A stretch of 64,000 nucleotides of DNA from Thermoanaerobaculia bacterium (GCA_035999335.1 DASYGV010000175.1:10807-74806), one strand, 5' to 3'; counted from the stretch's first letter, positions 4,143 to 62,928 are shown. Made by a program: numbers and translations. Notes: generated by a model not told the origin, from the letters alone.

Positions 4143-4212
4143 GTGCTGAGTGCTGCGTGCTGAGTGCTGAGTGAGTCTTGCCAAGAGCGACTCAGCACTC
4201 AGCACCCAGCAC
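4143..4212. repeat. GTGCTGA-heptamer hairpin (family 1, copy b), intra-operonic
   Basis: gtgctgagtgctgcgtgctgagtgctgagtgagtc - ttgccaagagc - gactcagcactcagcacccagcac, located between the MFP stop and the RND start. Confidence 0.85.
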
Positions 4213-4233
4213 TGCGACGTACCGGAGCTCATC

Positions 4234-7200
4234 ATGCAAAAACTTGCCGAAATCTGCGTCCGCCGCCCCGTCTTCGCGACAGTGATCATCCTCGCCCTCG
4301 TGGTGGTCGGCGCGTTCTCGTACTTCAAGCTGGGCGTCGATCGTTTTCCCAACGTCGAATTCCCGTTCGTCATCGTCACGACAGTGCTGCCGGGCGCGGC
4401 GCCTGAGGAAATCGAGACCGAGCTGACCGACAAGATCGAGGAATCGGTCAATACCATCAGCGGCATCGACGAGCTGACGTCGTTCTCGTCCGAGAACGTG
4501 TCGGTGGTCATGATCAGCTTCACGCTGGAGAAGAACCGCGACGTCGCCGCGCAGGAAGTGCGCGACAAGGTCTCGACCATCCTCGGCGATCTCCCGCAAG
4601 ACGCCGAGCCGCCCATCATCCAGAGCTTCGACCCGGGCGCGATTCCGGTCGTGACCATCGCCGTCTCCGGTCCCGGCTCGCAGCGCGACATCTCCGAATA
4701 CGTCGACAAGAACCTCCGCCGCCGTCTCGAGACCGTGTACGGCGTCGGCCAGGTGCTGGTCATCGGCGCGCGTCCGCGGCAGATCAACGTCGTCGTCGAC
4801 AACGCGAAGCTCGCCGCGCAAGGACTCACCGCCGCGCAAGTCGTCAGCGCGCTGCAGTCGCAGAACATTCAGATCCCGGGCGGCAAGGTCGAGCAGGGCG
4901 TGCGCGACCTGACGCTGCGCACGTACGGGCGCGTCAGCTCGCCGGAGTCGTTCGGCAACATCCCGATCGCGAACGTGGGCGGCACGGCGATCCGGGTCCG
5001 CGATGTCGCGCGCATCGAGGACAGCATGTCCGAGGTGGAGTCGGCGGCGACGGTGAGCGGGAAGTCGGCGGTCGTGTTGATGGTCCGCAAGCAGTCGGGC
5101 ACGAACGCGATCCAGGTCGTCGAAGGCATCAAGGGACGCGTCGAGGAAGTGCGTCCGACGCTGCCGGCCGGCTACAAGCTCGACGTCATCCGCGATCAGT
5201 CGGAGTTCGTCCTCGCCGCGGTCGGAGCGGTGAAGGAACATCTGATCCTCGGATCGATCTTCGCGGCGCTGGTGGTTTGGCTGTTCCTCTCGTCGCCTCG
5301 CTTTCTCACCGTGATCGCGATGCTGGCATCGACGCTCGCGTTCTACTTCCTGCTGTGGGGACACAGCTTGCCGGTGCCGCGCGCGATCGCAGTGCCGCTG
5401 GCGTTGATCATCGGCATCGGGATGTTCTTCTATTTCGCCAGGAAGTCGCGGCCGACGCTCATCGCCGCGGTGGCGATCCCGAGCTCGCTCATCGCCACGT
5501 TCGCGGCGATGCAGTACATGGGCTTCACGCTCAACGTCATCACTCTGCTCGCGCTGACGTTGGCGGTGGGCATCGTCATCGACGACGCGGTGGTCGTGCT
5601 CGAGAACATCTTCCGGCACATGGAAGAGAAAAACATGAGTCCCGCCGAGGCGGCGGTGGCGGGGACGAAGGAAGTCGGCCTTGCGGTCATGGCGACCTCG
5701 ATGTCGCTGATCATCGTCTTTCTCCCGGTCGCGTTCATGGCCGGCATCGTCGGACGCTTCATGTACTCGTTCGGCGTAACCATGGCGTTCTCGATCGCGG
5801 TGTCGCTGCTGGTGTCGTTCACGCTCACGCCGATGATGGCCGCGCGCTACCTGCGCCGCGAGGACCTCAATCACGAGGGCGGCAGCACGCGCGAGAAGGG
5901 CTTCTACGCGGTCATCGAGCGGGGCTACATGGCCATGCTCGACTGGTCGATGGCTCATCGCTGGGTGATCGTCGTGATGATGCTGCTGGTCCTGTTCTCC
6001 ACGGGCCCGCTGTTCACGGTCGTCGATAAAACGTTCCTTCCGTACGACGACGAAGGCCAGTTCGCGATCACGGTGCGCGCGCCGGAGGGCGCGAGCGTCT
6101 CCTCGACTTCCACGATCGCGGAGTCGATCGCGTCTCGCGCGCGCAAGCTGAAGGGCGTGACGAACACGGTCGTCACGATCGGCGACGATCCGCAGCAGAC
6201 GCTCAATCTCGCAACGGTGTACGTCAAGCTCGGGCCGGCAGACGGGCGCGAGAATCAGTACGAGATCATGGACCGCGTCCGCACGGAGGTCCTCCCACAG
6301 TACCAGCGTCTCAATCTACGCACGACCGTCGCGCCTGTGAACGAGTTCGGCGGCGGAACGGATGCGGAGGTCATGTTCTGGATCGGCGGTCCCGATCTCG
6401 AGCAGCTCGACAAGTACGCGCGCCAGCTCACGGACGCGATCAAGGACCCGAAGCTCGGCACGACGGACGTCGACACGAACTTCATCGTCGGCAAGCCGGA
6501 GCTGGCCGTGCGCATCGACCGCGACAAGGCCACGGACCTCGGCGTCCGCGTGCAGGACCTGGCCGCGACGCTGAACGTGCTGGTCGGCGGACAGCAGGCG
6601 ACGAGCTACTACGAAGGCGGCGAGGAGTACGAGGTGCACGTGCGCGCCGAGGAGAGCTCGCGCAATACCGTGGCGGCTATTCAGCAGATCGAAGTGCCGT
6701 CGTCGACGGGCGCGAACGTGAAGCTGAACGATCTCGTGAAGCTCGAGGAAGGCAGTGGGCCGTCGGTCGTCAATCGCTACAACCGCCGGCGCATGGTCAT
6801 GGTGCTGGCGAACATGCAGCCAGGCCATTCGTCGCAGGCGGTCATGGATCTGCTGCAGCGGAAGGCGAAGGAGCTGAACATGCCGGCGTCGTATTCGGCG
6901 GGTTTCACCGGGCGCGCGCAGGAGCAGCAGAAAGCGGGCGTCAACTTCATGCTCGCGTTCGTGCTGTCGATCATCTTCATGTACCTGATCCTGGCCGCGC
7001 AGTTCGAGAGCTGGGTGCATCCGATCACGATCCTGTTGTCGCTGCCGATGACCGTGCCGTTCGCGCTGCTGTCGCTGGTGCTGCTGAATGAGTCGGTGAA
7101 CATCTTCTCGGCCCTCGGCATCGTGGTGCTGTTCGGGATCGTGAAGAAGAACTCGATCCTGCAGGTCGACCACACGAATCAGCTCCGCGAGCGCGGCATG

Positions 7201-7494
7201 GCCCGCCCCGAAGCGATCCGCGAGGCGAACCGCGACCGTCTGCGCCCGATCCTGATGACGACGATCGCGTTCGTGGCCGGCATGATCCCGCTGGTCGTCT
7301 CCAGCGGCGCCGGCGCCGCGACGAACCGCGCCATCGGCGCGACGATCATCGGCGGCCAGACGCTCGTGCTCCTGCTGACGCTGCTCGCGACGCCGGTTCT
7401 CTACTCGCTCTTCGACGACGTGCAGGAGCTCTTCCGCCGGCGGCGGAAGGTGCGGGTGGAGGAAGAGGTCGTGATCGAGGGTGTGACTACGTAA
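4234..7494 (+). CDS. RND (AcrB/HAE1-type) efflux permease
   Basis: MQKLAEICVRRPVFATVIILALVVVGA is a typical AcrB N-terminus, and the 12-TM pattern has two large loops. The track start at 4171 would translate the hairpin repeat, so I chose the ATG at 4234. Confidence 0.93.
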   Translation: MQKLAEICVRRPVFATVIILALVVVGAFSYFKLGVDRFPNVEFPFVIVTTVLPGAAPEEIETELTDKIEESVNTISGIDELTSFSSENVSVVMISFTLEKNRDVAAQEVRDKVSTILGDLPQDAEPPIIQSFDPGAIPVVTIAVSGPGSQRDISEYVDKNLRRRLETVYGVGQVLVIGARPRQINVVVDNAKLAAQGLTAAQVVSALQSQNIQIPGGKVEQGVRDLTLRTYGRVSSPESFGNIPIANVGGTAIRVRDVARIEDSMSEVESAATVSGKSAVVLMVRKQSGTNAIQVVEGIKGRVEEVRPTLPAGYKLDVIRDQSEFVLAAVGAVKEHLILGSIFAALVVWLFLSSPRFLTVIAMLASTLAFYFLLWGHSLPVPRAIAVPLALIIGIGMFFYFARKSRPTLIAAVAIPSSLIATFAAMQYMGFTLNVITLLALTLAVGIVIDDAVVVLENIFRHMEEKNMSPAEAAVAGTKEVGLAVMATSMSLIIVFLPVAFMAGIVGRFMYSFGVTMAFSIAVSLLVSFTLTPMMAARYLRREDLNHEGGSTREKGFYAVIERGYMAMLDWSMAHRWVIVVMMLLVLFSTGPLFTVVDKTFLPYDDEGQFAITVRAPEGASVSSTSTIAESIASRARKLKGVTNTVVTIGDDPQQTLNLATVYVKLGPADGRENQYEIMDRVRTEVLPQYQRLNLRTTVAPVNEFGGGTDAEVMFWIGGPDLEQLDKYARQLTDAIKDPKLGTTDVDTNFIVGKPELAVRIDRDKATDLGVRVQDLAATLNVLVGGQQATSYYEGGEEYEVHVRAEESSRNTVAAIQQIEVPSSTGANVKLNDLVKLEEGSGPSVVNRYNRRRMVMVLANMQPGHSSQAVMDLLQRKAKELNMPASYSAGFTGRAQEQQKAGVNFMLAFVLSIIFMYLILAAQFESWVHPITILLSLPMTVPFALLSLVLLNESVNIFSALGIVVLFGIVKKNSILQVDHTNQLRERGMARPEAIREANRDRLRPILMTTIAFVAGMIPLVVSSGAGAATNRAIGATIIGGQTLVLLLTLLATPVLYSLFDDVQELFRRRRKVRVEEEVVIEGVTT

Positions 7495-7569
7495 AGGGTG
7501 TTTCTCGCGGCTCTTGAAAGGTGTGCGCGTTGAGCACAGGCCGTTTGAACGTCGTCCGTGTTTGGAGAG

Positions 7570-10500
7570 CTACGGTGCCCAGGCGAAGGCGATCACCCGT
7601 TCGGTCGCCATTCGGACAACGAGGGTCACGTGGTCGCCCGGTTGATGCTCCGAAGGCACCATGGCACTGTTCTGGATTGGGCCGGCAAGTCCGCTCACCG
7701 GATGACGGGCCCTCCATCCTCCCTTTTTCGTCCGTTCAGCAAGCAACTCTGCAACCACCAGATCGCCCGCCTTTGGCAGAGTTGCGGGAGGCGTTGTCGG
7801 TACCTTGACGGGAATCTTGCTGGAGGTGGAAGGCGCGGGAGGCTTCAAACAGCGCTCACTTAGATCGTGGGCCACTGCGGGTGTTATGTCATCACGCCCC
7901 TGGAGGCGCGACAACAGGTTTGAACGGCTCACGATGCTTCGAAGGACTGGTGCGTACCCGGCGCGGTGGTAATTGTCGCCGAGCCATCTTGCGATAAACG
8001 CATCCATTCCTTCAGTCTGTATGTCGAGCTCGATCGATTTCAACAGAAGGCGATGAATCTGATCTGGGATTTCCTTAGCAAGCACGTGCAGGCATTCCAG
8101 TGTCGCATGCGAATCACTGTCGCGCCTAATGGCATAAACAATGGAGTCACGGACGGCCCTTTTGCGATAGTCATCGGCTGGCCCTCGGAGATAGGAAGCT
8201 GCAGCCGAGGAGTTGGCCACTGCCGCCTTACCGAGGTTTTTGAGGAGGAAGCCCCTATGGCTACGCGCTTCGGGTCTGCCTGCGTAAGCTAAGGCCATGT
8301 CTATATATTGGGCCGCGGCCTTGCCGGCCGTCAGGAGCACCGCAAGGATCTGCTCCGGGTGGAGCGCATTGAATGCACGAACGTAATTGACGCCTCGCAG
8401 GAGCCATTCGGCGTCTCCATTCGAGCGCGCGATCAACGTCCGGAGGAGTTCGTACCTGCTGCTCGCGGTGACGTCTTGGCGGTCCAGCCACTGTCTTGCC
8501 CGTTCCACCACGCCGGCGTCCAATGGGTTTGTGGCGATCGAGGATCTGAGCAAGTCGTGCGCCTGTGGATGAGACGTGTTCACATCCAACCATTGCGTTG
8601 CGCGATTACCAAGGTCTGCATCCAACGGGTTTGCAGTGATCAAGGTTGCCAGCAGCTTGTACGCTTGAGGATGCGATGTATTCGCATCCAACCACTGCGT
8701 TGCGCGATTGCCGAGGTCGGTGTCCAACGGGTTCGCAGCGATCAAGGAGACGAGTAGCTGGTACGCTTGAGGATGCGACGTATTCGCATCCAACCATTGC
8801 GTTGCGCGATTACGAAGGTCCGTGTCCAAGGGGTTCGCAGCGATCAAGGTCCTGAGTAACTCGTGCGCCTGGAGATGAGATCGGTTCGCATCCAACCATT
8901 GCGTCGCGCGCTCGCGCACGTCCGGGTCTAATCGATTTCCCGCGACGAGCGCGGCGAGTAGATAGTGTGCGTTGGGATGCGAGGCGTTTGTGTCCAACCA
9001 TTGCGTGGCGAGCGCGCGAATGTCTGCGTCCGACGGATTTCCCGCGACGGATGCGGCGAGTGGATAATGCGCGTTGGGATGCGACCCGTTTGCCTCCAAC
9101 CATTGCGTCGTGCGCTCGTGAACGTCTGTGGACGACGGATTCCATGCGACGAGCGTGGCGAGTAGTAAATATGCGTTGGGATGCGACCCGTTTGTATCCA
9201 ACCATTGCATCGCGCGCTCGCGCAAGACCGCGTCCGATGGGTTTCCAGCCACAAGGCTGACGAGTAGATCGTACGCGTTGGGATGCAAGGCGTTCGAATC
9301 CAGCCACTCCGTCGCTCGAAGGAATATATCGGCGTTCGCCGGGCTCCTCGCAACCAACGGCGCGATGACAAGGTACGCAGGGGGGCGCCGGCTGTTTACA
9401 GTCAACCAGGCAAAGACAATACGACGCGCCTTCTCGGGCTGGCGTGAGCGCGCCAGAAGTGTCTTGAGCGCCTGTACTAAGCCTGGATTCTCAGGCATCG
9501 CGAAGAAGAATCTCTCCGCCGCATCCTTGAGGGCAATGCCGTTTTCGAGCGCATTCTCGCCGAGAAGCCACAGCAACCCGGCAACGGAACCATGGAGCAT
9601 GCGAGCGGTGCTCTCGTTCTCCATGGCTCGGACGGCTTCGGACGAAGGTGCCGGTATCAGGTCCAAGCCCGCGACTGTCGCTTCGAGTTCAAGCCATCGC
9701 GTAAGCGCTCGGGAATCTGGATGTCCGCCATGCGTCCCCAGATGCAGTCGGTAGAATTCGCGGATGACGTTCTTACGATCGGCGATCCGGATCGACTCCG
9801 AATCGGCGATCGTGCCAAGGTGGGTCGAGGTCAGGATCGTGCGAATTGGCGCGAATGGGAGAGGTTCCGCAACGTCGCGAGCACGCGTCTCCACGATCTG
9901 ATGAATCTCGCGCGCCAATGCCTTCTCGAGGGTCTCCGGCGGTCCCACCCACTCTTGAAACAGCAACCAGGCGAGGTGGGGGTGCGCCAAGCGCACGCCT
10001 CCTGGTGGATTGTCATCGATCCGAAAGTGGAGCTGATCCTCACGACAGAGTCTTTCGAGCTCATCGCGCAAACTTGGCTCGGCGATGAGGCCGAGAGGCG
10101 CATCGAGGTACAGCGCCGTCCCCGCCACAATCGTGCGCGCCGCTTCATAGACGCCGAAGCTTTTCAGCCGCCGCCCGAAACGGAGCGCGAATTCCGGCAT
10201 TCGCACACCTTGCGCAAGCTCGAAGACGAGTTGCACGAGAAGCGGATTCTCGCGCGTAAGCGAGGCCGGATCGAGCGGACGGTCGCTTCGCGCTTCGTAC
10301 CAAGCAACGAACTCCTCCAGCTCGACCGCATTCAAAGGGGGCAATACAAAGGAAGTGATCTCAAACACTTCCGGAAGGCGGCTGGAGAACTGTTCGAGTT
10401 GTTCGGTCGGGCCGCAGGTCAAGAGACCGATCGGGGGTGTCGCCAGCATGCAAGCCTCTCGCACCGCCTGTTCCCAGGCCTCGCGGTCGTGCTGATCGTA

Positions 10501-11589
10501 GATGTCATCCACCACCACGAGTGGGCGTCCCGCAGATCCTTCGGGAGGTGGCCACTTGGAAGAAAGGGCGAGCAGGTCCGCCACCTCGCCGGGGGTCACT
10601 TGAAGGATGGAAGGACCGGTCGCCGAAAGCAGAAGCTCGGAGATCAACTGAAGCTGGAGCACGGACTTCCCTTCGCCCGATCGCCCCGCGATCCAGAACA
10701 CCGGTACTTTGCCAATCAGCTCGTCACTCCCCACTCGGTTAAGCCAATGCTCGAGAGAAGTGCGAACCGCCTTCAGCATCGCCGGGCGGTCGCGAAAGAA
10801 TCCTTTGCGCAGATGTTCGATCTTCGGTGTTTGGCCCGCGAGTACTTTTCGGTTGTCGGCGGCGTCGGGATCGAGCTGGACGTGTGCCGACGTCAGGACG
10901 CGTCCGACGGGACTCCACTCCCTGCGTCGTTCCGCGCTGAGGTAAATGCTCCACAGGTCGCGGCCGATGGATCGCGTCGCCTCTGGCGGCTCGGCAAGAA
11001 AACCGGACAAGAGCCGCCCGAGGAGGCGGTCGAGGAGCGTCGTCGGGTCGCGGATGCCAGCGTTCCAGAACACGACACTCAGCTCGTCGAGCGGGTCGCG
11101 CTCCTGGAGCACGGGAGTGATCGGATCGATCCGCTCGATCATCTCTCGCCAGCACGTTTCATCCCCGTCAACCAAGACCTCGGTCATCGGCACGTCCGCC
11201 GGATGGTGAGCAGTAGCCCGCGTCCGACAAGCGACCTGAAAGCAAAGGCGGGGGAGAAGCCGCGGAATCTTTTTGCGGCAAAGCTCGGTGAGGAGATATG
11301 CCTCCTCGAGAAAGGCGCGCATCGCTTTCAGGTCGAGCGTCCTTTTGACCTGGATCAATCGCAGAAGACCATCCGTGGGGCAGACGATGTCGGAGATGCT
11401 CTCCATCTCCGCCATTCCGCCGGGCTCGAGGGCTTCCTGCTCCACTCTCTGGAAGAAGCGAGCTAGAAACGCGGCGGCCTGATAGGAAAAGCCAGAGAGT
11501 GACCACCAGCCGCCGGTCGCCCGCCGTCCGTGGTGTTCGCGCCAGAGCGCGAGAAGACCAGCAAGATCGTCTCCGGGGTTCGCGGACAC
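7570..11589 (-). CDS. STAND-type P-loop NTPase with N-terminal Cap4/DUF4297-like PD-(D/E)xK nuclease motifs, 34-aa helical repeat array and C-terminal OB/S1-like domain (candidate Avs-like defence protein)
   Basis: aa 33-37 GFSYQ. aa 63-82 ESISD...LIQVK (E/D...QxK). Walker A GRSGEGKS (aa 302-309). Walker B LVVVDD (aa 357-362). About 10 repeats of the type RATQWLDANTSHPQAYxLLxxLIAANPLDxDL (aa 724-1060). Pro-rich linker followed by GDLVVAELLAERTKKGGWRARHPVSGLAGPIQNS...GDHVTLVV. Confidence 0.9.
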   Translation of the reverse strand: MSANPGDDLAGLLALWREHHGRRATGGWWSLSGFSYQAAAFLARFFQRVEQEALEPGGMAEMESISDIVCPTDGLLRLIQVKRTLDLKAMRAFLEEAYLLTELCRKKIPRLLPRLCFQVACRTRATAHHPADVPMTEVLVDGDETCWREMIERIDPITPVLQERDPLDELSVVFWNAGIRDPTTLLDRLLGRLLSGFLAEPPEATRSIGRDLWSIYLSAERRREWSPVGRVLTSAHVQLDPDAADNRKVLAGQTPKIEHLRKGFFRDRPAMLKAVRTSLEHWLNRVGSDELIGKVPVFWIAGRSGEGKSVLQLQLISELLLSATGPSILQVTPGEVADLLALSSKWPPPEGSAGRPLVVVDDIYDQHDREAWEQAVREACMLATPPIGLLTCGPTEQLEQFSSRLPEVFEITSFVLPPLNAVELEEFVAWYEARSDRPLDPASLTRENPLLVQLVFELAQGVRMPEFALRFGRRLKSFGVYEAARTIVAGTALYLDAPLGLIAEPSLRDELERLCREDQLHFRIDDNPPGGVRLAHPHLAWLLFQEWVGPPETLEKALAREIHQIVETRARDVAEPLPFAPIRTILTSTHLGTIADSESIRIADRKNVIREFYRLHLGTHGGHPDSRALTRWLELEATVAGLDLIPAPSSEAVRAMENESTARMLHGSVAGLLWLLGENALENGIALKDAAERFFFAMPENPGLVQALKTLLARSRQPEKARRIVFAWLTVNSRRPPAYLVIAPLVARSPANADIFLRATEWLDSNALHPNAYDLLVSLVAGNPSDAVLRERAMQWLDTNGSHPNAYLLLATLVAWNPSSTDVHERTTQWLEANGSHPNAHYPLAASVAGNPSDADIRALATQWLDTNASHPNAHYLLAALVAGNRLDPDVRERATQWLDANRSHLQAHELLRTLIAANPLDTDLRNRATQWLDANTSHPQAYQLLVSLIAANPLDTDLGNRATQWLDANTSHPQAYKLLATLITANPLDADLGNRATQWLDVNTSHPQAHDLLRSSIATNPLDAGVVERARQWLDRQDVTASSRYELLRTLIARSNGDAEWLLRGVNYVRAFNALHPEQILAVLLTAGKAAAQYIDMALAYAGRPEARSHRGFLLKNLGKAAVANSSAAASYLRGPADDYRKRAVRDSIVYAIRRDSDSHATLECLHVLAKEIPDQIHRLLLKSIELDIQTEGMDAFIARWLGDNYHRAGYAPVLRSIVSRSNLLSRLQGRDDITPAVAHDLSERCLKPPAPSTSSKIPVKVPTTPPATLPKAGDLVVAELLAERTKKGGWRARHPVSGLAGPIQNSAMVPSEHQPGDHVTLVVRMATERVIAFAWAP
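8410..9420 (-). repeat. In-frame 102-nt (34-aa) tandem coding repeats within the STAND gene
   Basis: atccaacca(t/c)tgcgttgcgcgatt recurs at 8584, 8686 and 8788 with 102-nt spacing. Repeats 5-7 are near-identical at the protein level. Confidence 0.9.
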
Positions 11590-11893
11590 CGTTCTATGCT
11601 AGCGGAAACCAATTACGTATGTGCTGATGCACACGGCGTCGATCCTCCGCGCCGGCCCCTTCCATTCGCCTCTCTGCACGTGCGTTCGCAACGCCGGTCA
11701 GGAACTGTGGTTGCGATCAACGTCCTTACGCTAATGGCGATGGGCATGGGCGCAGCTTGTTCTTGTACTTCTACTTCGCCAAGACCTTGCAGACGCTGCT
11801 GGTGTCTTCACGCGGATGATGGTCGCTGTGTTGCGGGGGCGCCGGCCCGAAAACGCGCGATAAATACAGATTCGTATAAATTCATTGTTGTAT

Positions 11894-12091
11894 TCAGGCA
11901 CGCGCGTTTTCTGCTCGCGTCCCGTTGGTGCAGCTTCCGATTCTCGCTGCGCGGAGATAGATGAGAACGCGCGCTGAAGCACTTCGAACTGCGTTGGGTG
12001 CGGCCATACGATTGACGCAGCACCACAATTCCGCGCTTCTGATCTGCTGTGCCGCGAGCGCAGTGATTTTGAGAGGAAGCGGCTCGTTCAT
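11894..12091 (-). pseudogene. ParE/RelE-like toxin remnant (N-terminal part only)
   Basis: MNEPLPLKITALAAQQIRSAELW..NR..AP resembles ParE-family N-termini. The ATGA overlaps the upstream antitoxin-like ORF. At 65 aa it is too short, the C-terminus is non-homologous-looking, and AT-richer decayed DNA follows. Confidence 0.35.
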
Positions 12092-12234
12092 TCGCGACTG
12101 CGCATCTCGCGCACGAGCGCTTCGGCGGAGATCGTCTCTCCCCGTTCTCCCTGGGCGATCGACTCGAGGAGCACGGCTTCGAGCTCCTCATCGACTCTGA
12201 AGGTCTCTTCACCGTCGAGCTCGAGGAGTGTCAC
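12088..12234 (-). pseudogene. ParD/RHH-type antitoxin C-terminal fragment
   Basis: The 48 aa ...EELEAVLLESIAQGERGETISAEALVREMRSRE resembles the C-terminal tail of ParD-like antitoxins. There is no N-terminal ribbon-helix-helix region. Confidence 0.3.
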
Positions 12235-12290
12235 GTCTGCTCCTTCCGGTAGCTCGAAAGGAAGATGTGCGTATCGAGCAGCAACCTCAT
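12231..12290 (-). pseudogene. VapC (PIN) toxin remnant, truncated after 19 codons
   Basis: MRLLLDTHIFL is the canonical PIN-toxin N-terminus. The ATGA overlaps the Phd stop. A stop follows after SSYRKEQT. Confidence 0.6.
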
Positions 12291-12517
12291 TGCTCAAAGT
12301 CTCGCAGGATCTCTTCCGGCAGCGGATCGTCGAAATCGTCCGGCACGACGAAGGATCCGCGGGCGAGGCCGAACGGTCGCGGCCGCCGCACGGCTTCAAT
12401 CGGCCGAATCTCTGCGACCGGCCGGTCCCGCTCGGTGACAATCAGCGTCTCGCCGTCCAGCACGCGATGAAGCACTCCTTCGGGATCGCGCTTGATCTCC
12501 TCGACAGTCACGTTCAT
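12287..12517 (-). CDS. Phd/YefM family type II antitoxin
   Basis: MNVTVEEIKRDPEGVLHRVLDGETLIVTERDRPVAEIRPI ... VVPDDFDDPLPEEILRDFE is typical of a VapB/Phd-type antitoxin. Confidence 0.8.
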   Translation of the reverse strand: MNVTVEEIKRDPEGVLHRVLDGETLIVTERDRPVAEIRPIEAVRRPRPFGLARGSFVVPDDFDDPLPEEILRDFEQ

Positions 12518-12624
12518 CGCTTCGAAAGTTTAGCAGAGGCGCTCAAGGCACCTCGGCGTTCCGTAGTCCTTTTCCGGGTAGGGATCTCCCTTTCCTCCGA
12601 CACTCCTACCACGAGGGGTGAATC

Positions 12625-14166
12625 TTGACTCGAATGAACATTCGGCCGCTGGTCGTGTCTCTTGCCGCGCTCTTCCTTCTCGCGAATGCTCCCGACGCGC
12701 ATGCGTTCTTCGAAGACCTCTGCCTGCCGCGCAATCCGGCGCAGGGGAAGCTGTCCTGGTGCCTCAATCCTACGTGCGTGAATCGGCCCGCGCCGAGCCG
12801 CGCCTGTCCGCAGCAGATCCTCGACTTCGCCACCGTCAAGGCGGGGCGGAGCATGATCCACGCGGACTCCACCTACTTCCTCGCCCAGGCCCTCGGCTAC
12901 CGCGCGGACGTCGCCTACTGGATCGCCGCGTACAACGAAGTCACCGACTACACGCAGTACGTCCCCATCGACCAATGCGGCGTGCAGGCGAGCACGCAAA
13001 ACTCGGGCGCGCCGTACATCACCGCCCAATACAACGGCTTCCAGCGGACGAACGTCAACACCGACGGGCCGCTCGATCACTACCTCGTCTCGTTTTCGCC
13101 GAACGGGCAGGGGACCGACGTCCACGGCGCGATGGGTGTGCAGGCGATCTATCCGTTCTACTACCCGCGTCCCGGCTATCCGCTGCGCATCGACGACACG
13201 TATCAGAAGACCCTCGCGAACCTCCGCCAGTGGGGCATGCTGCGCTCGCGCGATCCGGGCCTGCTCTGCGTCGTCGGCATGACCGATTCCACGGGAACGA
13301 CCTGCCTCAGCGGCGGAACGGTGTCGGGCGTCGTACCGACGCTCACCAATCCGAACGCGCCGAGTCCGATCAGCATCAGCGCGCCGCTCGGGAAGAAGGT
13401 GCTCAACCTCGACACGAGCACGGATCCCTGGACGACGGTCTATTACGAACAACTCGGCCCATGGCTCGACGACAAGTCGCGCACGACCGGCACGCTGTGG
13501 AAATCGAAGGTGCCGATCCCGGTGCCCGTGCAGATCGCGCGGCTCGGACACTATCTCCACACGATGCAGGATTCCTGTTCGCACTCGACCTACTGCGGCG
13601 ACGAATCGCCGTCGCCTCCCGATGGCGGCGATCCGGGCACGTTCATGGTTCTCTCCGACAACAACTTGAAGCTCTCTTTCGGCAACTCGTGTGCGATGAG
13701 CCCTCATCTCGCGGGACACATTCAGGAGACCGGCACCGGCGACAATCCGCTCCCGCTGCGCGTTTACACGGCGCTGAACCTCACGGTCGACGAGCTGATC
13801 GAGTTCGGGAACAACGTCGCGAAACATCACGAAGGATGGATCGTCAATCCCGATCTGCTGCCGCCCGACGTCGTCGGCGGCAAGAGCGCGCGGGGCGCCA
13901 GCGCGGCCGATTTGAAGAACACGCTCGTCGGCGCGATCGTCTCCGGCACCGCGTACAGCCGCGCGGAGGTGTATCAGTCCGGCGTCGTCACGCTGCCGCT
14001 GCAGCAGACGAATACCATCGCGCGCCTATCCGCGATGAATCTCGCACTGAGCCGGTACTCCGATACTCTCCGCAATCAGTCCGCGAACCCCGCGACCTTC
14101 ACATCGCTCGAGCACATGCCCGGAAACTCCGCGAAACCGGACGACACCAGCGTCTGCTGGAAGTGA
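12625..14166 (+). CDS. Secreted hypothetical protein (weak zinc phospholipase C / P1 nuclease-like motif)
   Basis: Signal peptide RPLVVSLAALFLLANAPDAHA. ARLGHYLHTMQDSCSH loosely resembles the LG..LH...D...H metal site, but the spacing differs by 2 residues. The start could instead be the ATG at 12634. Confidence 0.75.
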   Translation: MTRMNIRPLVVSLAALFLLANAPDAHAFFEDLCLPRNPAQGKLSWCLNPTCVNRPAPSRACPQQILDFATVKAGRSMIHADSTYFLAQALGYRADVAYWIAAYNEVTDYTQYVPIDQCGVQASTQNSGAPYITAQYNGFQRTNVNTDGPLDHYLVSFSPNGQGTDVHGAMGVQAIYPFYYPRPGYPLRIDDTYQKTLANLRQWGMLRSRDPGLLCVVGMTDSTGTTCLSGGTVSGVVPTLTNPNAPSPISISAPLGKKVLNLDTSTDPWTTVYYEQLGPWLDDKSRTTGTLWKSKVPIPVPVQIARLGHYLHTMQDSCSHSTYCGDESPSPPDGGDPGTFMVLSDNNLKLSFGNSCAMSPHLAGHIQETGTGDNPLPLRVYTALNLTVDELIEFGNNVAKHHEGWIVNPDLLPPDVVGGKSARGASAADLKNTLVGAIVSGTAYSRAEVYQSGVVTLPLQQTNTIARLSAMNLALSRYSDTLRNQSANPATFTSLEHMPGNSAKPDDTSVCWK

Positions 14167-14174
14167 GCGATCGC

Positions 14175-15716
14175 ATGCAGCGATTTCTCATCGGATTCTT
14201 CTGCGTCGCCGCGATCGAAGTCGCGGCGCAGAACTCCTCCGTCGACGTCCTTCACTACGCGATCGACATCACGCTGCCGCGCAGCGGCACGGAGATCACC
14301 GCGAGTGCGGAACTGACCATCGCTTCGCGAACGGCGCCGCTGGAATCGGTGGTGCTCGACTTCGGCAATCTCGTCATCGATGCGGTGAGCATCGAAGGGA
14401 AAGACGCGCCGTGGACGCGCGATGGCGACCGGCTGACGATCGCCGCCGCACGCGCGACGCGCGATCCATTCCGCGTGCGCATCGCCTATCACGGCAAGCC
14501 GGCGGACGGACTCGTGTTGCAGCAGAACAAGCACGGTCACTTTGGCGTCTTCGCCGACAACTGGCCGAACCGCGCGCACCAGTGGTTCCCCGCGGTCGAT
14601 CATCCGTCGGACAAAGCAACGGTGGAGTTTCGCGTGACCGCGCCCGAGGCCTTCGACGTGATCGCGAACGGGACTCTGATCGAGAGCGCGAGCCTGCTGA
14701 ATGGCTCGAAGCGTTGGCACTGGAGCGAATCCACGCCGATCCCCGTGCACTGCATGGTCATCGGCGCGACGGAGTTCGCGATCGTGCGCGCCGGCGAAGA
14801 CGAAGGCGTCGAAGTTTCGTACTACCTCTATCCCGGCGACCGCGACGCCGGCGTTCGGCAGTTCGGACGCGTCGAGCAGATGCTCGACTTCTACTCCGAC
14901 ATCATCGGGTCGTATCCCTACGACAAGCTCGCGATCGTGGAGTCGTCGACGCGCTTCGGCGGCATGGAGAACGCGAGCGCGATCTTCCTCGACGAGAAAC
15001 GCATTCACGGCACGGAGTCGCTCGAAGGCCTGGTCGCGCACGAGATCGCACATCAGTGGTTCGGTGATTCCATATCGCAGCGCGAGTGGCACGACCTCTG
15101 GCTGAGCGAGGGCTTCGCGACGTACTTCGGCGCGCTTTTCTTCGAGCGCGCGAACGGCACTGAGGAGATGCGGCGCATGATGCGCGCGAACCGCGACGAC
15201 TACCTGCGCGATCCCGCATTCGCCACGCGGCCGATCTACGACCCTGCCGTCACCGACCTCACGAAGCTGCTCAACGCGCTCCGCTACGACAAGGCCGCAT
15301 GGGTGTTGCACATGTTGCGCGGGGTTGTCGGCGACGACGCGTTCTTCGCCGGGATCCGCGACTACTACGCCGCGCACCGCAACGGCAACGCGAGCACGGC
15401 GGAGCTGCGCATGATCATGGAACGCCACGCGAAACAGCCGCTGGAGTGGTTCTTTCAGCAGTGGATCTACGAGGCCGGGCATCCGGTCTTCACCACGAAA
15501 TGGACCTGGCGTCGCGGAAAGCTGACGGTGGACGTTGGGCAGACGCAGCCGGGAACGGTCTTCCGCACGCCGGCCGTCCTCGAAGTGCGCAACGCCGTCG
15601 GCGCGTACCGCGAGAACGTCGTCATCGACGAGCGCACCGAGCGCTTCGAGCTCGAGGCGGAGGTGCGGCCGACGGAGGTGGTGCTGGATCCGGACGAGTG
15701 GATCTTGAAGCAATAG
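14175..15716 (+). CDS. M1 family aminopeptidase (aminopeptidase N-like)
   Basis: GGMENASAIF (GxMEN) and HEIAHQWFG...WLSEGFATY (HExxH-18-E). Signal-like N-terminus MQRFLIGFFCVAAIEVAAQ. Confidence 0.92.
   Translation: MQRFLIGFFCVAAIEVAAQNSSVDVLHYAIDITLPRSGTEITASAELTIASRTAPLESVVLDFGNLVIDAVSIEGKDAPWTRDGDRLTIAAARATRDPFRVRIAYHGKPADGLVLQQNKHGHFGVFADNWPNRAHQWFPAVDHPSDKATVEFRVTAPEAFDVIANGTLIESASLLNGSKRWHWSESTPIPVHCMVIGATEFAIVRAGEDEGVEVSYYLYPGDRDAGVRQFGRVEQMLDFYSDIIGSYPYDKLAIVESSTRFGGMENASAIFLDEKRIHGTESLEGLVAHEIAHQWFGDSISQREWHDLWLSEGFATYFGALFFERANGTEEMRRMMRANRDDYLRDPAFATRPIYDPAVTDLTKLLNALRYDKAAWVLHMLRGVVGDDAFFAGIRDYYAAHRNGNASTAELRMIMERHAKQPLEWFFQQWIYEAGHPVFTTKWTWRRGKLTVDVGQTQPGTVFRTPAVLEVRNAVGAYRENVVIDERTERFELEAEVRPTEVVLDPDEWILKQ

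Positions 15717-62851: not shown

Positions 62852-62928
<77 letters not shown>

What the first reader, a model, noticed from the sequence alone, without database searches (positions are those of the whole stretch)
7570..11589. Orphan 1339-aa STAND NTPase with nuclease-like N-terminus, helical repeat sensor and OB-like tail: candidate undescribed Avs-like defence gene
The sequence shows a tripartite architecture. (i) The N-terminal ~290 aa carry GFSYQ (aa 33-37), ESISD (63-67) and IQVK (79-82). This is the GF.YQ / E..D / QxK arrangement I associate with Cap4/DUF4297-type PD-(D/E)xK effector nucleases. (ii) A P-loop NTPase has Walker A GRSGEGKS and Walker B LVVVDD. (iii) About ten 34-residue helical repeats follow. 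The effector-NTPase-repeat order is the logic of AVAST/Avs and related STAND antiphage sensors. Two features are unusual. There is an extra ~120-aa helical region, and a Pro-rich linker leads to a ~65-aa C-terminal segment (GDLVVAELLAERTKKGGWRARHPVSGLAGPIQNS...GDHVTLVV) whose pattern resembles an S1/OB nucleic-acid-binding fold. The gene is monocistronic. It is wedged convergently against a housekeeping efflux operon and flanked by ~500 bp of AT-richer non-coding DNA and toxin-antitoxin debris, a typical defence-islet context.
Basis: partly seen in the sequence, partly recalled or inferred. Interest (0 to 1): 0.8.

Follow-up and report, generated by a model that had tools for sequence, protein, structure and literature searches.

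The report
Avs-like nuclease sensor with CRISPR-derived tail
This is a real 1339-residue gene that looks like a one-protein bacterial antiviral sensor (nuclease + ATPase switch + repeat sensor), and its unusual extra tail is a small RNA-binding-type fold otherwise found almost only on Cmr6 subunits of type III-B CRISPR complexes.

Summary
"Orphan" is wrong: 56 related protein clusters exist and 16 loci were found in 185,579 species genomes. These are scattered across phyla and share no synteny.

- **N-terminus (aa 1-285).** A Cap4/LmuA-type PD-(D/E)xK nuclease by family-level HMM evidence. E63, S66, D67, Q80, K82 and E96 are invariant. The fold search was only weakly supportive.
- **Centre.** A divergent STAND P-loop NTPase, nearest Pfam nSTAND_NTPase5. 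The query itself scores below threshold.
- **Sensor.** Nine to ten in-register 34-aa repeats. Their number varies from 5 to 15 among homologs. A family-wide helical cap follows.
- **Tail (aa 1270-1339).** It models confidently as a five-stranded barrel, and its top 50 PDB fold matches are all S1/TRAM-type OB folds. It has no sequence similarity to S1.

The tail belongs to a large family with no Pfam model: 316 representative clusters. In the sampled proteins it sits at the C-terminus of type III CRISPR Cmr6, Cmr6-Cmr1 and Csm5 proteins. Only this small STAND clade also carries it. Distant STAND relatives carry canonical S1 domains at the same position.

Verdict: a probable Avs-like abortive-infection nuclease, a new variant whose tail was borrowed from CRISPR. 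Its function is untested.

The parts
7570..11589 (-). Whole ORF: 1339 aa, GTG start, stop at 7570-7572
   Evidence: Full-length homologs at 36-66% identity.
10735..11589 (-). N-terminal Cap4/LmuA-type PD-(D/E)xK nuclease domain (aa 1-285). GFSYQ is at 11479-11493, ESISD at 11389-11403 and IQVK at 11344-11355.
   Evidence: G26, G27, G33, Q37, E63, S66, D67, Q80, K82 and E96 are invariant in 26 sequences. PADLOC LmuA hits 18/26 and Pfam Cap4_nuclease 4/26. The family profile aligns these motifs to AbpA 8zue (E 0.016) and LmuA 9ux7. The AF2 model has pLDDT 80.9 and the best-probability fold hits are LmuA, SgrAI and EndoMS, none of them significant.
9430..10734 (-). STAND-type P-loop NTPase module with helical/winged-helix region (aa 286-720). 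Walker A is at 10663-10686 and Walker B at 10504-10521.
   Evidence: Pfam nSTAND_NTPase5 scores 23 bits in the query (threshold 34) and 36.7-40.5 bits in relatives P0047, P0054 and P0055. G302-S309 and D361/D362 are invariant. The post-sensor-1 motif FxLPPLxxxExxEF aligns to mS29/DAP3.
8401..9420 (-). Nine to ten tandem 34-aa helical repeats, presumed ligand-sensing solenoid (aa 724-1063)
   Evidence: In-register repeats. TRF period 102 bp. Repeat number is 5-15 among close homologs and position 17 of the unit is the most variable. Only weak TPR-like hits.
7843..8400 (-). Family-conserved C-terminal helical cap (aa 1064-1249)
   Evidence: L1119, N1126, Y1133, L1134, R1142, W1202, L1203 and R1228 are invariant in 12 family members. 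Relatives without a tail end with this region.
7783..7842 (-). Pro/Ser/Thr-rich flexible linker (about aa 1250-1269)
   Evidence: Read from the sequence. An equivalent linker rich in Pro/Ser/Thr/Ala precedes the same domain in Cmr6 proteins.
7573..7782 (-). C-terminal S1/TRAM-like OB-fold domain of the Cmr6-tail family (aa 1270-1339). W1292 is invariant and the motif TKKGGW is conserved.
   Evidence: 316 representative proteins match at E<=1e-3. The sampled hosts are Cmr6, Cmr6-Cmr1 and Csm5. AF2 pLDDT is 87.8 with 5 strands. All top 50 Foldseek hits are S1/TRAM OB folds at prob about 1.0 and TMq about 0.6.
11590..12087 (.). About 500 bp of upstream spacer holding only short ORFs without a family match, presumed to carry the promoter
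   Evidence: 57.2% GC. No sigma-70 consensus found.

Best explanation
The gene encodes a single-protein STAND (NLR-like, Avs-like) antiphage sensor-nuclease.

**Proposed mechanism**
- *Resting state (inferred).* By analogy with SeAvs3 and SeAvs7, the protein is an autoinhibited monomer.
- *Sensing (inferred).* The solenoid of 34-aa repeats plus the helical cap binds an invader-derived ligand.
- *Switching (shown: motifs only).* This licenses nucleotide-dependent oligomerisation of the central P-loop NTPase. The Walker A and Walker B motifs are intact.
- *Killing (shown: homology and invariant catalytic residues; inferred: the activity).* Oligomerisation brings together the N-terminal Cap4/LmuA-type PD-(D/E)xK domains (D67, Q80, K82). 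These then degrade DNA indiscriminately and abort the infection.

**The tail**
- *Shown.* A flexible Pro-rich linker tethers an extra C-terminal S1/TRAM-like OB-fold domain. In the sampled proteins the same domain is the C-terminal appendage of type III CRISPR Cmr6, Cmr6-Cmr1 and Csm5 subunits.
- *Inferred.* This small STAND clade most likely captured it from such a gene.
- *Inferred.* Its most likely role is to bind single-stranded RNA. That could place the sensor on transcripts or ribonucleoproteins, or supply a second, nucleic-acid input to activation.
For: - **Architecture and motifs.**
- **Nuclease homology.** PADLOC LmuA hits 18/26 family N-termini (best E 3.5e-8; query 1.4e-3). Pfam Cap4_nuclease hits 4/26. 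The profile aligns the GG..GF.FQ / E..D / QVK motifs to AbpA and LmuA structures. E63, S66, D67, Q80, K82 and E96 are invariant.
- **NTPase.** nSTAND_NTPase5 hits run across the family and the Walker motifs are invariant.
- **Effector swapping in relatives.** P0053 carries an alpha/beta-hydrolase and P0054 a trypsin-like peptidase in place of the nuclease. This is typical of defence STANDs.
- **Distribution and context.** Only 16 loci in 185,579 species genomes, spread over several phyla. Close homologs share no synteny. Some relatives sit beside DndCDE, HerA, or a helicase-REase plus an SMC-like ATPase.
- **Repeat array.** Copy number varies from 5 to 15.
- **Tail.** Canonical S1 domains occupy the same C-terminal position in distant STAND relatives P0053, P0055 and P0056.
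- **Precedent.** SeAvs7 has the order Cap4-NTPase-TPR and forms nuclease tetramers on ligand binding (PMC13581612).
Against: - There are no experimental data for any family member.
- The query is below Pfam thresholds for both nSTAND_NTPase5 (23 bits against 34) and Cap4_nuclease.
- No PADLOC AVAST/Avs model hits it.
- The fold search with the N-terminal model gave no match at E<=1e-3. The model is weakest around the catalytic strand.
- No solved STAND structure matches the NTPase profile.
- The window's immediate neighbours are an efflux operon and an M1 peptidase, not defence genes. Several homolog contexts are also housekeeping.
- No relatives were found in viral contigs.
- Tail RNA binding rests on fold and position only. 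There is no sequence similarity to S1, and some S1-fold domains, such as those of eIF2alpha and K3L, bind proteins.
Confidence: 0.65

Rival explanations
1. The tail is not an RNA binder. It is a protein-protein docking module that recognises the same conserved partner in both settings. That partner could be a host factor, a phage protein, or a component of the type III CRISPR machinery. On this reading the STAND protein is physically or functionally wired to type III-B CRISPR, or to the factor that Cmr6 tails recruit.
For: - The tail is more conserved than its host. Across 171 pairs of Cmr6 proteins, mean identity is 50.6% in the tail and 34.7% in the RAMP part.
- STAND tails are as close to Cmr6 tails (51.6%) as Cmr6 tails are to each other. 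This suggests one specific, conserved ligand.
- S1-fold domains of eIF2alpha and K3L, which bind proteins, are among the top fold hits.
- SeAvs7 incorporates host EF-Tu as a structural component (PMC13581612).
Against: - No cas genes or CRISPR array lie near any of the tail-bearing STAND loci examined or in the 64-kb window.
- Canonical RNA-binding S1 domains occupy the same position in distant relatives.
- Conserved basic and aromatic residues (TKKGGW, R/K-H, N) fit a nucleic-acid-binding surface.
- By my own knowledge of type III complexes, Cmr6/Cmr1/Csm5 sit at the crRNA 3' end, where target RNA enters.
Confidence: 0.2
2. It is a STAND protein without an antiviral role. Examples would be a regulator, or a programmed-cell-death or kin-conflict switch of a soil bacterium, in which the nuclease-like domain serves a non-immune or non-catalytic purpose.
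For: - Defence and non-defence STAND clades are interspersed (PMC13581612).
- The window's neighbours are housekeeping genes.
- No known defence HMM apart from LmuA-type nuclease models hits the protein.
- Highly regular near-identical repeats are unlike the irregular sensors of the characterised Avs1-4 proteins (my own knowledge).
Against: - The catalytic PD-(D/E)xK residues are invariant across the family.
- No DNA-binding HTH or other output domain is present.
- The distribution is patchy and non-syntenic.
- Effectors are swapped for a hydrolase or a peptidase in relatives.
- Some relatives sit next to Dnd, HerA or REase-helicase genes.
Confidence: 0.12
3. It is a decaying or inactive gene, a remnant of a horizontally acquired island alongside the toxin-antitoxin debris.
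For: - A truncated VapC-like stub and a lone antitoxin lie upstream.
- The gene's GC content is lower than the window average.
Against: - The 4-kb ORF is intact.
- All family-invariant residues are retained.
- It aligns end to end with homologs at 51-66% identity.
Confidence: 0.03

Closest known systems
Avs (AVAST) antiviral STAND NTPases with a Cap4 nuclease effector, e.g. SeAvs3 and SeAvs7 (Gao et al. 2022, from my own knowledge; Lee et al. 2026, PMC13581612)
   Same: - The order is N-terminal Cap4-type PD-(D/E)xK nuclease, then STAND P-loop NTPase, then a C-terminal helical-repeat sensor.
- It is a single gene with a sporadic distribution.
- The expected mechanism is ligand-induced oligomerisation that activates the nuclease.
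   Different: - No PADLOC AVAST model matches, and no solved Avs structure matches the NTPase or nuclease profiles.
- The NTPase is nearest Pfam nSTAND_NTPase5.
- The sensor is a regular array of near-identical 34-aa units with variable copy number.
- It carries an additional tethered OB-fold domain.
- No trigger or phenotype is known.
LmuA (Lamassu), Cap4 (CBASS) and AbpA nuclease domains: the DUF4297 / PF14130 family
   Same: - The motif arrangement GG..GF.(Y/F)Q, E..(S)D, QxK is shared.
- Family-level HMM hits were obtained.
   Different: - The query itself is below threshold.
- The fold match is weak (LmuA 9nxx_D, prob 0.89, E 0.14).
- Here the domain is fused to a STAND NTPase, not to a SAVED sensor or an SMC-type partner.
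Pfam PF25199, nSTAND_NTPase5
   Same: It is the best Pfam match of the P-loop region. Many family members carry it in the precomputed annotation.
   Different: The query scores 23 bits against a gathering threshold of 34, so the family lies at the edge of the model. I found no paper describing nSTAND5.
C-terminal domain of type III CRISPR Cmr6, Cmr6-Cmr1 fusions and Csm5 (no Pfam model; no description found in the searchable literature)
   Same: - The tail is 50-69% identical to these domains (E about 1e-20 to 1e-34).
- It has the same extreme C-terminal position.
- It follows a similar flexible linker.
   Different: - The host protein is a STAND NTPase, not a RAMP.
- No cas genes are nearby.
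- Among the 150 listed representatives, only P0003 and P0058 are STAND hosts.
S1 (PF00575) and TRAM RNA-binding OB folds
   Same: - The predicted fold matches: a five-stranded barrel, TMq about 0.6, prob about 1.0 to eIF2alpha, RNase R, NusA, ribosomal protein S1, Spt6 and RlmCD/MiaB TRAM domains.
- True S1 domains occupy the same C-terminal position in the distant relatives P0053, P0055 and P0056.
   Different: There is no detectable sequence similarity. hhalign gives a probability below 1%, and there is no Pfam or PDB sequence hit.
NLRs of fungi and multicellular bacteria that have highly similar internal repeats (my own knowledge of work by Dyrka, Saupe, Paoletti and colleagues)
   Same: The sensor is built of near-identical tandem units, with variation concentrated at a few positions and a variable copy number.
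   Different: The repeat type and the NTPase clade differ. Diversifying selection was not tested here.

Membership tests
STAND class P-loop NTPases | Walker A GxxxxGK[ST] and Walker B hhhhD[DE] | tested here: met
   GRSGEGKS at aa 302-309 and LVVVDD at aa 357-362. Both are invariant in 12 family members.
STAND class P-loop NTPases | Helical and winged-helix modules after the NTPase core, followed by a C-terminal repeat superstructure | tested here: inconclusive
   The post-core motif FVLPPLNAVELEEF aligns to the STAND-like mS29/DAP3 (E 1.3e-3), and repeats follow. This region was not modelled, and no solved STAND matched by sequence.
Pfam nSTAND_NTPase5 (PF25199) | Score at or above the gathering threshold of 34 bits | tested here: not met
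   The query scores 23 bits, E 7.7e-5. Relatives P0055 (40.5), P0054 (38.3) and P0047 (36.7) pass.
AVAST/Avs types 1-5 as modelled in PADLOC-DB v2 | Match to an AVAST protein HMM | tested here: not met
   Only a LmuA model hit appeared at E<=1.
Avs families in the wider sense (Lee et al. 2026) | Tripartite effector - STAND NTPase - large C-terminal sensor | tested here: met
Avs families in the wider sense (Lee et al. 2026) | Placement in one of the 198 defence-associated clades, plus a phage-protection phenotype and an identified trigger | not testable with these tools
   The paper's supplementary tables are not held.
Cap4 / DUF4297 nuclease (PF14130; LmuA-type) | Sequence match to the family model | tested here: inconclusive
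   The query has no Pfam hit and scores E 1.4e-3 against PADLOC LmuA. Among relatives, 18/26 hit LmuA (best E 3.5e-8) and 4/26 hit PF14130 (best E 3.1e-6, with P0041 at 25 bits against a threshold of 26.2).
Cap4 / DUF4297 nuclease (PF14130; LmuA-type) | Conserved PD-(D/E)xK catalytic residues (D ... Q/E-x-K) | tested here: met
   E63, S66, D67, Q80, K82 and E96 are invariant in 26 sequences. They align with the motifs of AbpA and LmuA.
Cap4 / DUF4297 nuclease (PF14130; LmuA-type) | Restriction-endonuclease-like fold | tested here: inconclusive
   The AF2 model has pLDDT 80.9 but drops to 51-66 around aa 21-40 and 61-70. Foldseek gave no hit at E<=1e-3. LmuA, SgrAI and EndoMS are the highest-probability hits.
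S1 RNA-binding domain (PF00575) | Sequence match to the S1 profile | tested here: not met
   No Pfam hit. hhalign against S1 tails of relatives gives probabilities of 0.2% and 0.95%.
S1/TRAM-like OB fold (structural class) | Five-stranded beta-barrel that superposes on S1/TRAM domains | tested here: met
   pLDDT 87.8 with strands at 16-22, 32-35, 40-44, 59-67 and 72-76 of the 78-aa segment. The top 50 PDB hits are all S1/TRAM type, with prob 0.96-1.0 and TMq 0.46-0.66.
Cmr6/Csm5 C-terminal tail domain (no Pfam model) | Significant profile match over the full 70 aa, at the extreme C-terminus and after a flexible linker | tested here: met
TPR repeats | Match to TPR profiles | tested here: not met
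   Only TPR_19 at E 0.48 and PrsT at E 1.3e-3, both far below their cut-offs. The repeat is 34 aa long and was not modelled.

The most novel reading that the evidence does not exclude
The Cmr6-type OB domain gives this STAND receptor a nucleic-acid input. Activation of the nuclease would then require, or be tuned by, binding of invader or transcript RNA, either alone or together with a protein ligand held by the repeats. That would make it a bacterial NLR-like receptor built partly from a CRISPR type III RNA-handling module. The same experiments would also reveal the function of a widespread, apparently undescribed appendage of type III-B Cmr6 subunits.
Probability: 0.2. Interest if true: 0.8.

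Novelty: new variant of a known kind. Interest (0 to 1): 0.55.

Why it matters
- **Known Avs triggers are proteins.** In Lee et al. 2026 (PMC13581612), all characterised Avs families sense phage proteins. A STAND sensor carrying an RNA-binding-type domain, canonical S1 in one branch and Cmr6-type in another, would be a handle on whether some bacterial NLR-like receptors use nucleic acid as a ligand, co-ligand or scaffold.
- **The tail family is itself a lead.** It has 316 representative clusters at 50% identity. In the sampled proteins it sits on Cmr6, Cmr6-Cmr1 and Csm5. It is more conserved than the RAMP core. It has no Pfam model, no solved structure and no description that I could find.
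- **It shows domain exchange between immune systems.** Its presence on both a CRISPR effector subunit and an Avs-like protein is a concrete example of domain shuffling between two otherwise unrelated systems.

Tried and rejected
- **S1 by sequence.** Rejected. hhalign of the tail against S1 tails of relatives gave 0.2% and 0.95% probability. There was no Pfam or PDB sequence hit.
- **SH3-like reading of the tail.** Dropped. The lead was a weak 2yt6 match at E 1.2, but Foldseek returned only S1/TRAM OB folds.
- **"Orphan".** Rejected.
- **Membership of Avs1-5.** Not supported by PADLOC.
- **Closest solved STAND.** None was found. The best match was mS29/DAP3 at E 1.3e-3.
- **Fold confirmation of the nuclease.** Inconclusive.
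- **Second tail copy, cas genes or a CRISPR array in the window.** No second tail copy and no Rfam CRISPR repeat family were found; there is only one tRNA. Cas proteins themselves were not scanned for.
- **Tail or S1 domains in the 16 genome relatives.** None.
- **Phage-borne relatives.** None.
- **Promoter consensus upstream.** None, but this is uninformative for this kind of organism.
- **Organism identity via cluster look-up.** Uninformative.
- **Partner of the HerA neighbour in L015.** No PDB match.
- **Literature.** Nothing on "nSTAND5" and nothing on a Cmr6 OB/S1 or C-terminal domain. The supplementary tables of Lee et al. 2026 are not held.
- **First attempt at a genome scan.** The 26-sequence alignment failed for lack of a conserved stretch, so a 12-sequence alignment was used instead.

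Full report
**1. Observation**

The ORF 7570..11589 on the minus strand is real. It starts with GTG and encodes 1339 aa.
- GFSYQ at aa 33-37, ESISD at 63-67 and IQVK at 79-82;
- Walker A GRSGEGKS at 302-309;
- Walker B LVVVDD at 357-362.

Written in 34-residue frames, aa 724-1063 fall into nine to ten in-register units of the type RATQWLDANTSHPQAYxLLxxLIAANPLDxDLxN. Tandem Repeats Finder sees the same array in the DNA, with a 102-bp period and 75-80% matches. A Pro/Ser/Thr-rich stretch at about aa 1250-1269 leads into the last 70 residues.

The gene converges on an OEP/HlyD/AcrB efflux operon that ends at 7494. An M1 peptidase and an acyl-CoA ligase lie on the other side. Between the gene and the peptidase there are three things:
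- about 500 bp holding only short ORFs without a family match, at 57% GC;
- a Phd/YefM-like antitoxin ORF;
- a 19-codon stub that reads like the start of a PIN/VapC toxin.

**2. It is not an orphan**

A search of 5.8 billion proteins returned 56 other clusters. Full-length matches run from 66% down to about 25% identity, and many carry the Pfam family nSTAND_NTPase5. The first 720 residues, nuclease-like domain plus NTPase, are conserved as one unit in nearly all of them.

A scan of one genome per GTDB species (185,579 species) confirmed only 16 loci. They come from Hydrogenedentota, several Alphaproteobacteria, Sorangium and Rivihabitans. None was found in viral contigs.

Close homologs sit in unrelated neighbourhoods. 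The family is therefore rare, patchy and non-syntenic.

Some neighbourhoods are defence-like:
- DndCDE next to the Brevundimonas homolog;
- HerA in L015;
- a helicase-REase and an SMC-like ATPase in L022;
- a transposase, DUF4365 and DUF4062 proteins near P0002 and P0003.

Others are plainly housekeeping. I did not do a formal enrichment test.

**3. N-terminal domain**

In an alignment of 26 family N-termini, G26, G27, G33, Q37, E63, S66, D67, Q80, K82, E96 and R268 are invariant.
- The query alone has no Pfam hit here.
- PADLOC's LmuA model hits 18 of the 26 (best E 3.5e-8; query 1.4e-3).
- Pfam Cap4_nuclease hits 4 of 26 (best E 3.1e-6).
- A profile of the family aligns exactly these motifs to the solved AbpA (8zue, E 0.016) and LmuA (9ux7) proteins.

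The AlphaFold2 model has mean pLDDT 80.9 but is weakest around the motif strands. Foldseek against the PDB gave nothing at E<=1e-3. The hits with the highest probability were LmuA, SgrAI and EndoMS, all PD-(D/E)xK enzymes.

I conclude that the domain is homologous to Cap4/LmuA nucleases and keeps the catalytic residues. This rests on sequence evidence. The fold test was inconclusive.

**4. NTPase and sensor**

The Walker A and Walker B residues are invariant in the family.

The best Pfam match is nSTAND_NTPase5. It is sub-threshold in the query (23 bits against 34) and above threshold in three relatives. A profile of aa 286-720 finds no solved STAND protein. Its best match is the STAND-like mitoribosomal mS29/DAP3, on the motif that follows the NTPase core.

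Two relatives replace the nuclease with other effector-type domains: an alpha/beta-hydrolase in P0053 and a trypsin-like peptidase in P0054.

The number of 34-aa repeats ranges from 5 to 15 among the closer homologs. Variation within the array concentrates at a few positions of the unit, with position 17 the most variable.

The helical region after the repeats (aa 1064-1249) is conserved in the 12 closer family members aligned. It is where relatives without a tail end. It is therefore a family-wide cap and not an extra.

**5. The tail**

Within the STAND family, only the five closest proteins (P0001-P0005), plus the fragment P0058, carry the last 70 residues. A profile of these five tails was searched against 1.84 billion representative proteins. 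It found 316 proteins at E<=1e-3 and 154 at E<=1e-10. Almost all carry the match at the extreme C-terminus.

The sampled hosts are type III CRISPR RAMP proteins:
- Cmr6, about 370-420 aa;
- Cmr6-Cmr1 fusions, about 670-950 aa;
- Csm5.

Iterative searches classify about 110 of the 139 hosts that have an N-terminal part as Cmr6-like. Most of the remaining large ones also hit the RAMP model. In locus L007 the domain sits at the end of a cmr2-cmr3-cmr4-cmr5-cmr6/1 operon, followed by Card1, Csx3 and Cas4-Cas1.

STAND tails are 50-69% identical to Cmr6 tails. In 19 Cmr6 proteins the tail is more conserved than the RAMP part: mean 50.6% identity against 34.7%. It is preceded by a flexible linker, as it is here.

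No Pfam model and no PDB sequence covers the domain. I found no description of it in the searchable literature.

**6. Fold of the tail**

With a 63-sequence alignment, AlphaFold2 gives pLDDT 87.8 and five strands. The top 50 Foldseek PDB matches are all S1- or TRAM-type OB folds. They include eIF2alpha, RNase R/II, NusA, ribosomal protein S1, Spt6, exosome cap subunits, RlmCD and MiaB. Probability is about 1.0 and TM-score about 0.6 normalised to the query. E-values are only about 1e-2, as expected for a 70-residue domain.

Profile-profile comparison with genuine S1 domains shows no sequence relationship.

Three distant relatives of the same STAND family (P0053, P0055, P0056) end in canonical S1 domains. 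S1-type domains have therefore been attached to the C-terminus of this STAND family at least twice.

**7. Mechanism**

The best-supported reading is an Avs-like abortive-infection protein. Ligand capture by the repeat solenoid and cap would drive nucleotide-dependent oligomerisation. Oligomerisation would assemble the Cap4-type nuclease, as shown structurally for SeAvs3 and SeAvs7 (PMC13581612).

What is shown here:
- the domain order;
- the intact catalytic and Walker residues;
- effector swapping in relatives;
- the sporadic distribution.

What is inferred: the defence role, the oligomerisation and the DNase activity.

For the tail I favour single-stranded RNA binding, for four reasons:
- the fold;
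- the conserved TKKGGW, R/K-H and N residues;
- canonical S1 domains at the same position in relatives;
- its home on the subunits that, by established knowledge of type III complexes, cap the crRNA 3' end.

The main rival is a docking domain for one conserved partner. The unusually high conservation of the tail would fit that reading.

No cas genes lie near any tail-bearing STAND locus I could see. No second copy of the tail and no Rfam CRISPR repeat family was found in the window.

**8. Comparison and novelty**

In how it would work, this is an Avs. In membership, it fails the PADLOC AVAST models. It sits at the edge of nSTAND_NTPase5. I could not place it in the 589 clades of Lee et al. 2026, because their tables are not held.

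A Cap4-STAND-repeat protein is ordinary in 2026. Two things are new:
- the tethered OB domain shared with Cmr6/Csm5;
- the finding that this domain is a large family with no Pfam model.

I rate it a new variant of a known kind, with moderate interest.

Noticed in passing
window 12231-12517 (-): Toxin-antitoxin remnant. A 76-aa Phd/YefM-like antitoxin ORF (12287-12517; Pfam E 2e-4, below threshold) overlaps by 4 nt (ATGA) the start of a stub reading MRLLLDTHIFLSSYRKEQT*. I read this as the N-terminus of a PIN/VapC toxin cut off after 19 codons.
   Followed up: partly
L007 5877-8345: In a type III-B operon, the Cmr6/Cmr1 fusion gene (5877-7997) and the 114-aa ORF holding the tail domain (8001-8345) are in the same frame. 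A single TAG (…GAG CCA TAG GAC ATG…) separates them. This could be a genuine split, stop-codon read-through or a sequencing error. Several other short 'stand-alone' tail proteins are fragments at contig ends, for example P0208 in L006.
   Followed up: partly
window 8401-9420 (-); P0002-P0040: The number of 34-aa repeats varies from 5 to 15 among homologs (15 in P0004, 5 in P0013). Within the window's array, variation concentrates at unit positions 8, 10, 17, 25 and 33. This resembles the concerted-evolution repeat sensors of fungal and bacterial NLRs. Selection was not tested.
   Followed up: partly
P0053, P0054 (relatives); P0055, P0056: Distant members of the same STAND family swap the N-terminal nuclease for an alpha/beta-hydrolase (PGAP1/DUF676-like) or a trypsin-like peptidase. 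Some end in one to three canonical S1 domains.
   Followed up: partly
L003 14261-14476; L024 3466-5241; L025 3293-5068: DUF4062-containing proteins lie immediately beside two of the closest homologs. Next to P0002 it is a 71-aa fragment. Next to P0003 it is a 591-aa protein followed by an 893-aa protein with no Pfam hit. This may be a recurring neighbour. There is no equivalent in the window.
   Followed up: no
L004 1-3364: The Brevundimonas denitrificans homolog (P0035) lies about 6 kb from a DndC/DndD/DndE phosphorothioation cluster.
   Followed up: no
window 4171-7494 vs 7570-11589 and 12618-15716: Third-position GC is 0.90 in the AcrB gene, 0.69 in the STAND gene and 0.68 in the M1 peptidase ORF as called. 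Low GC3 is therefore not unique to the STAND gene, and composition alone does not mark it as foreign.
   Followed up: no
window 62855-62928 (-): This single tRNA gene is the only Rfam match in the 64-kb window. No CRISPR repeat family was detected.
   Followed up: no
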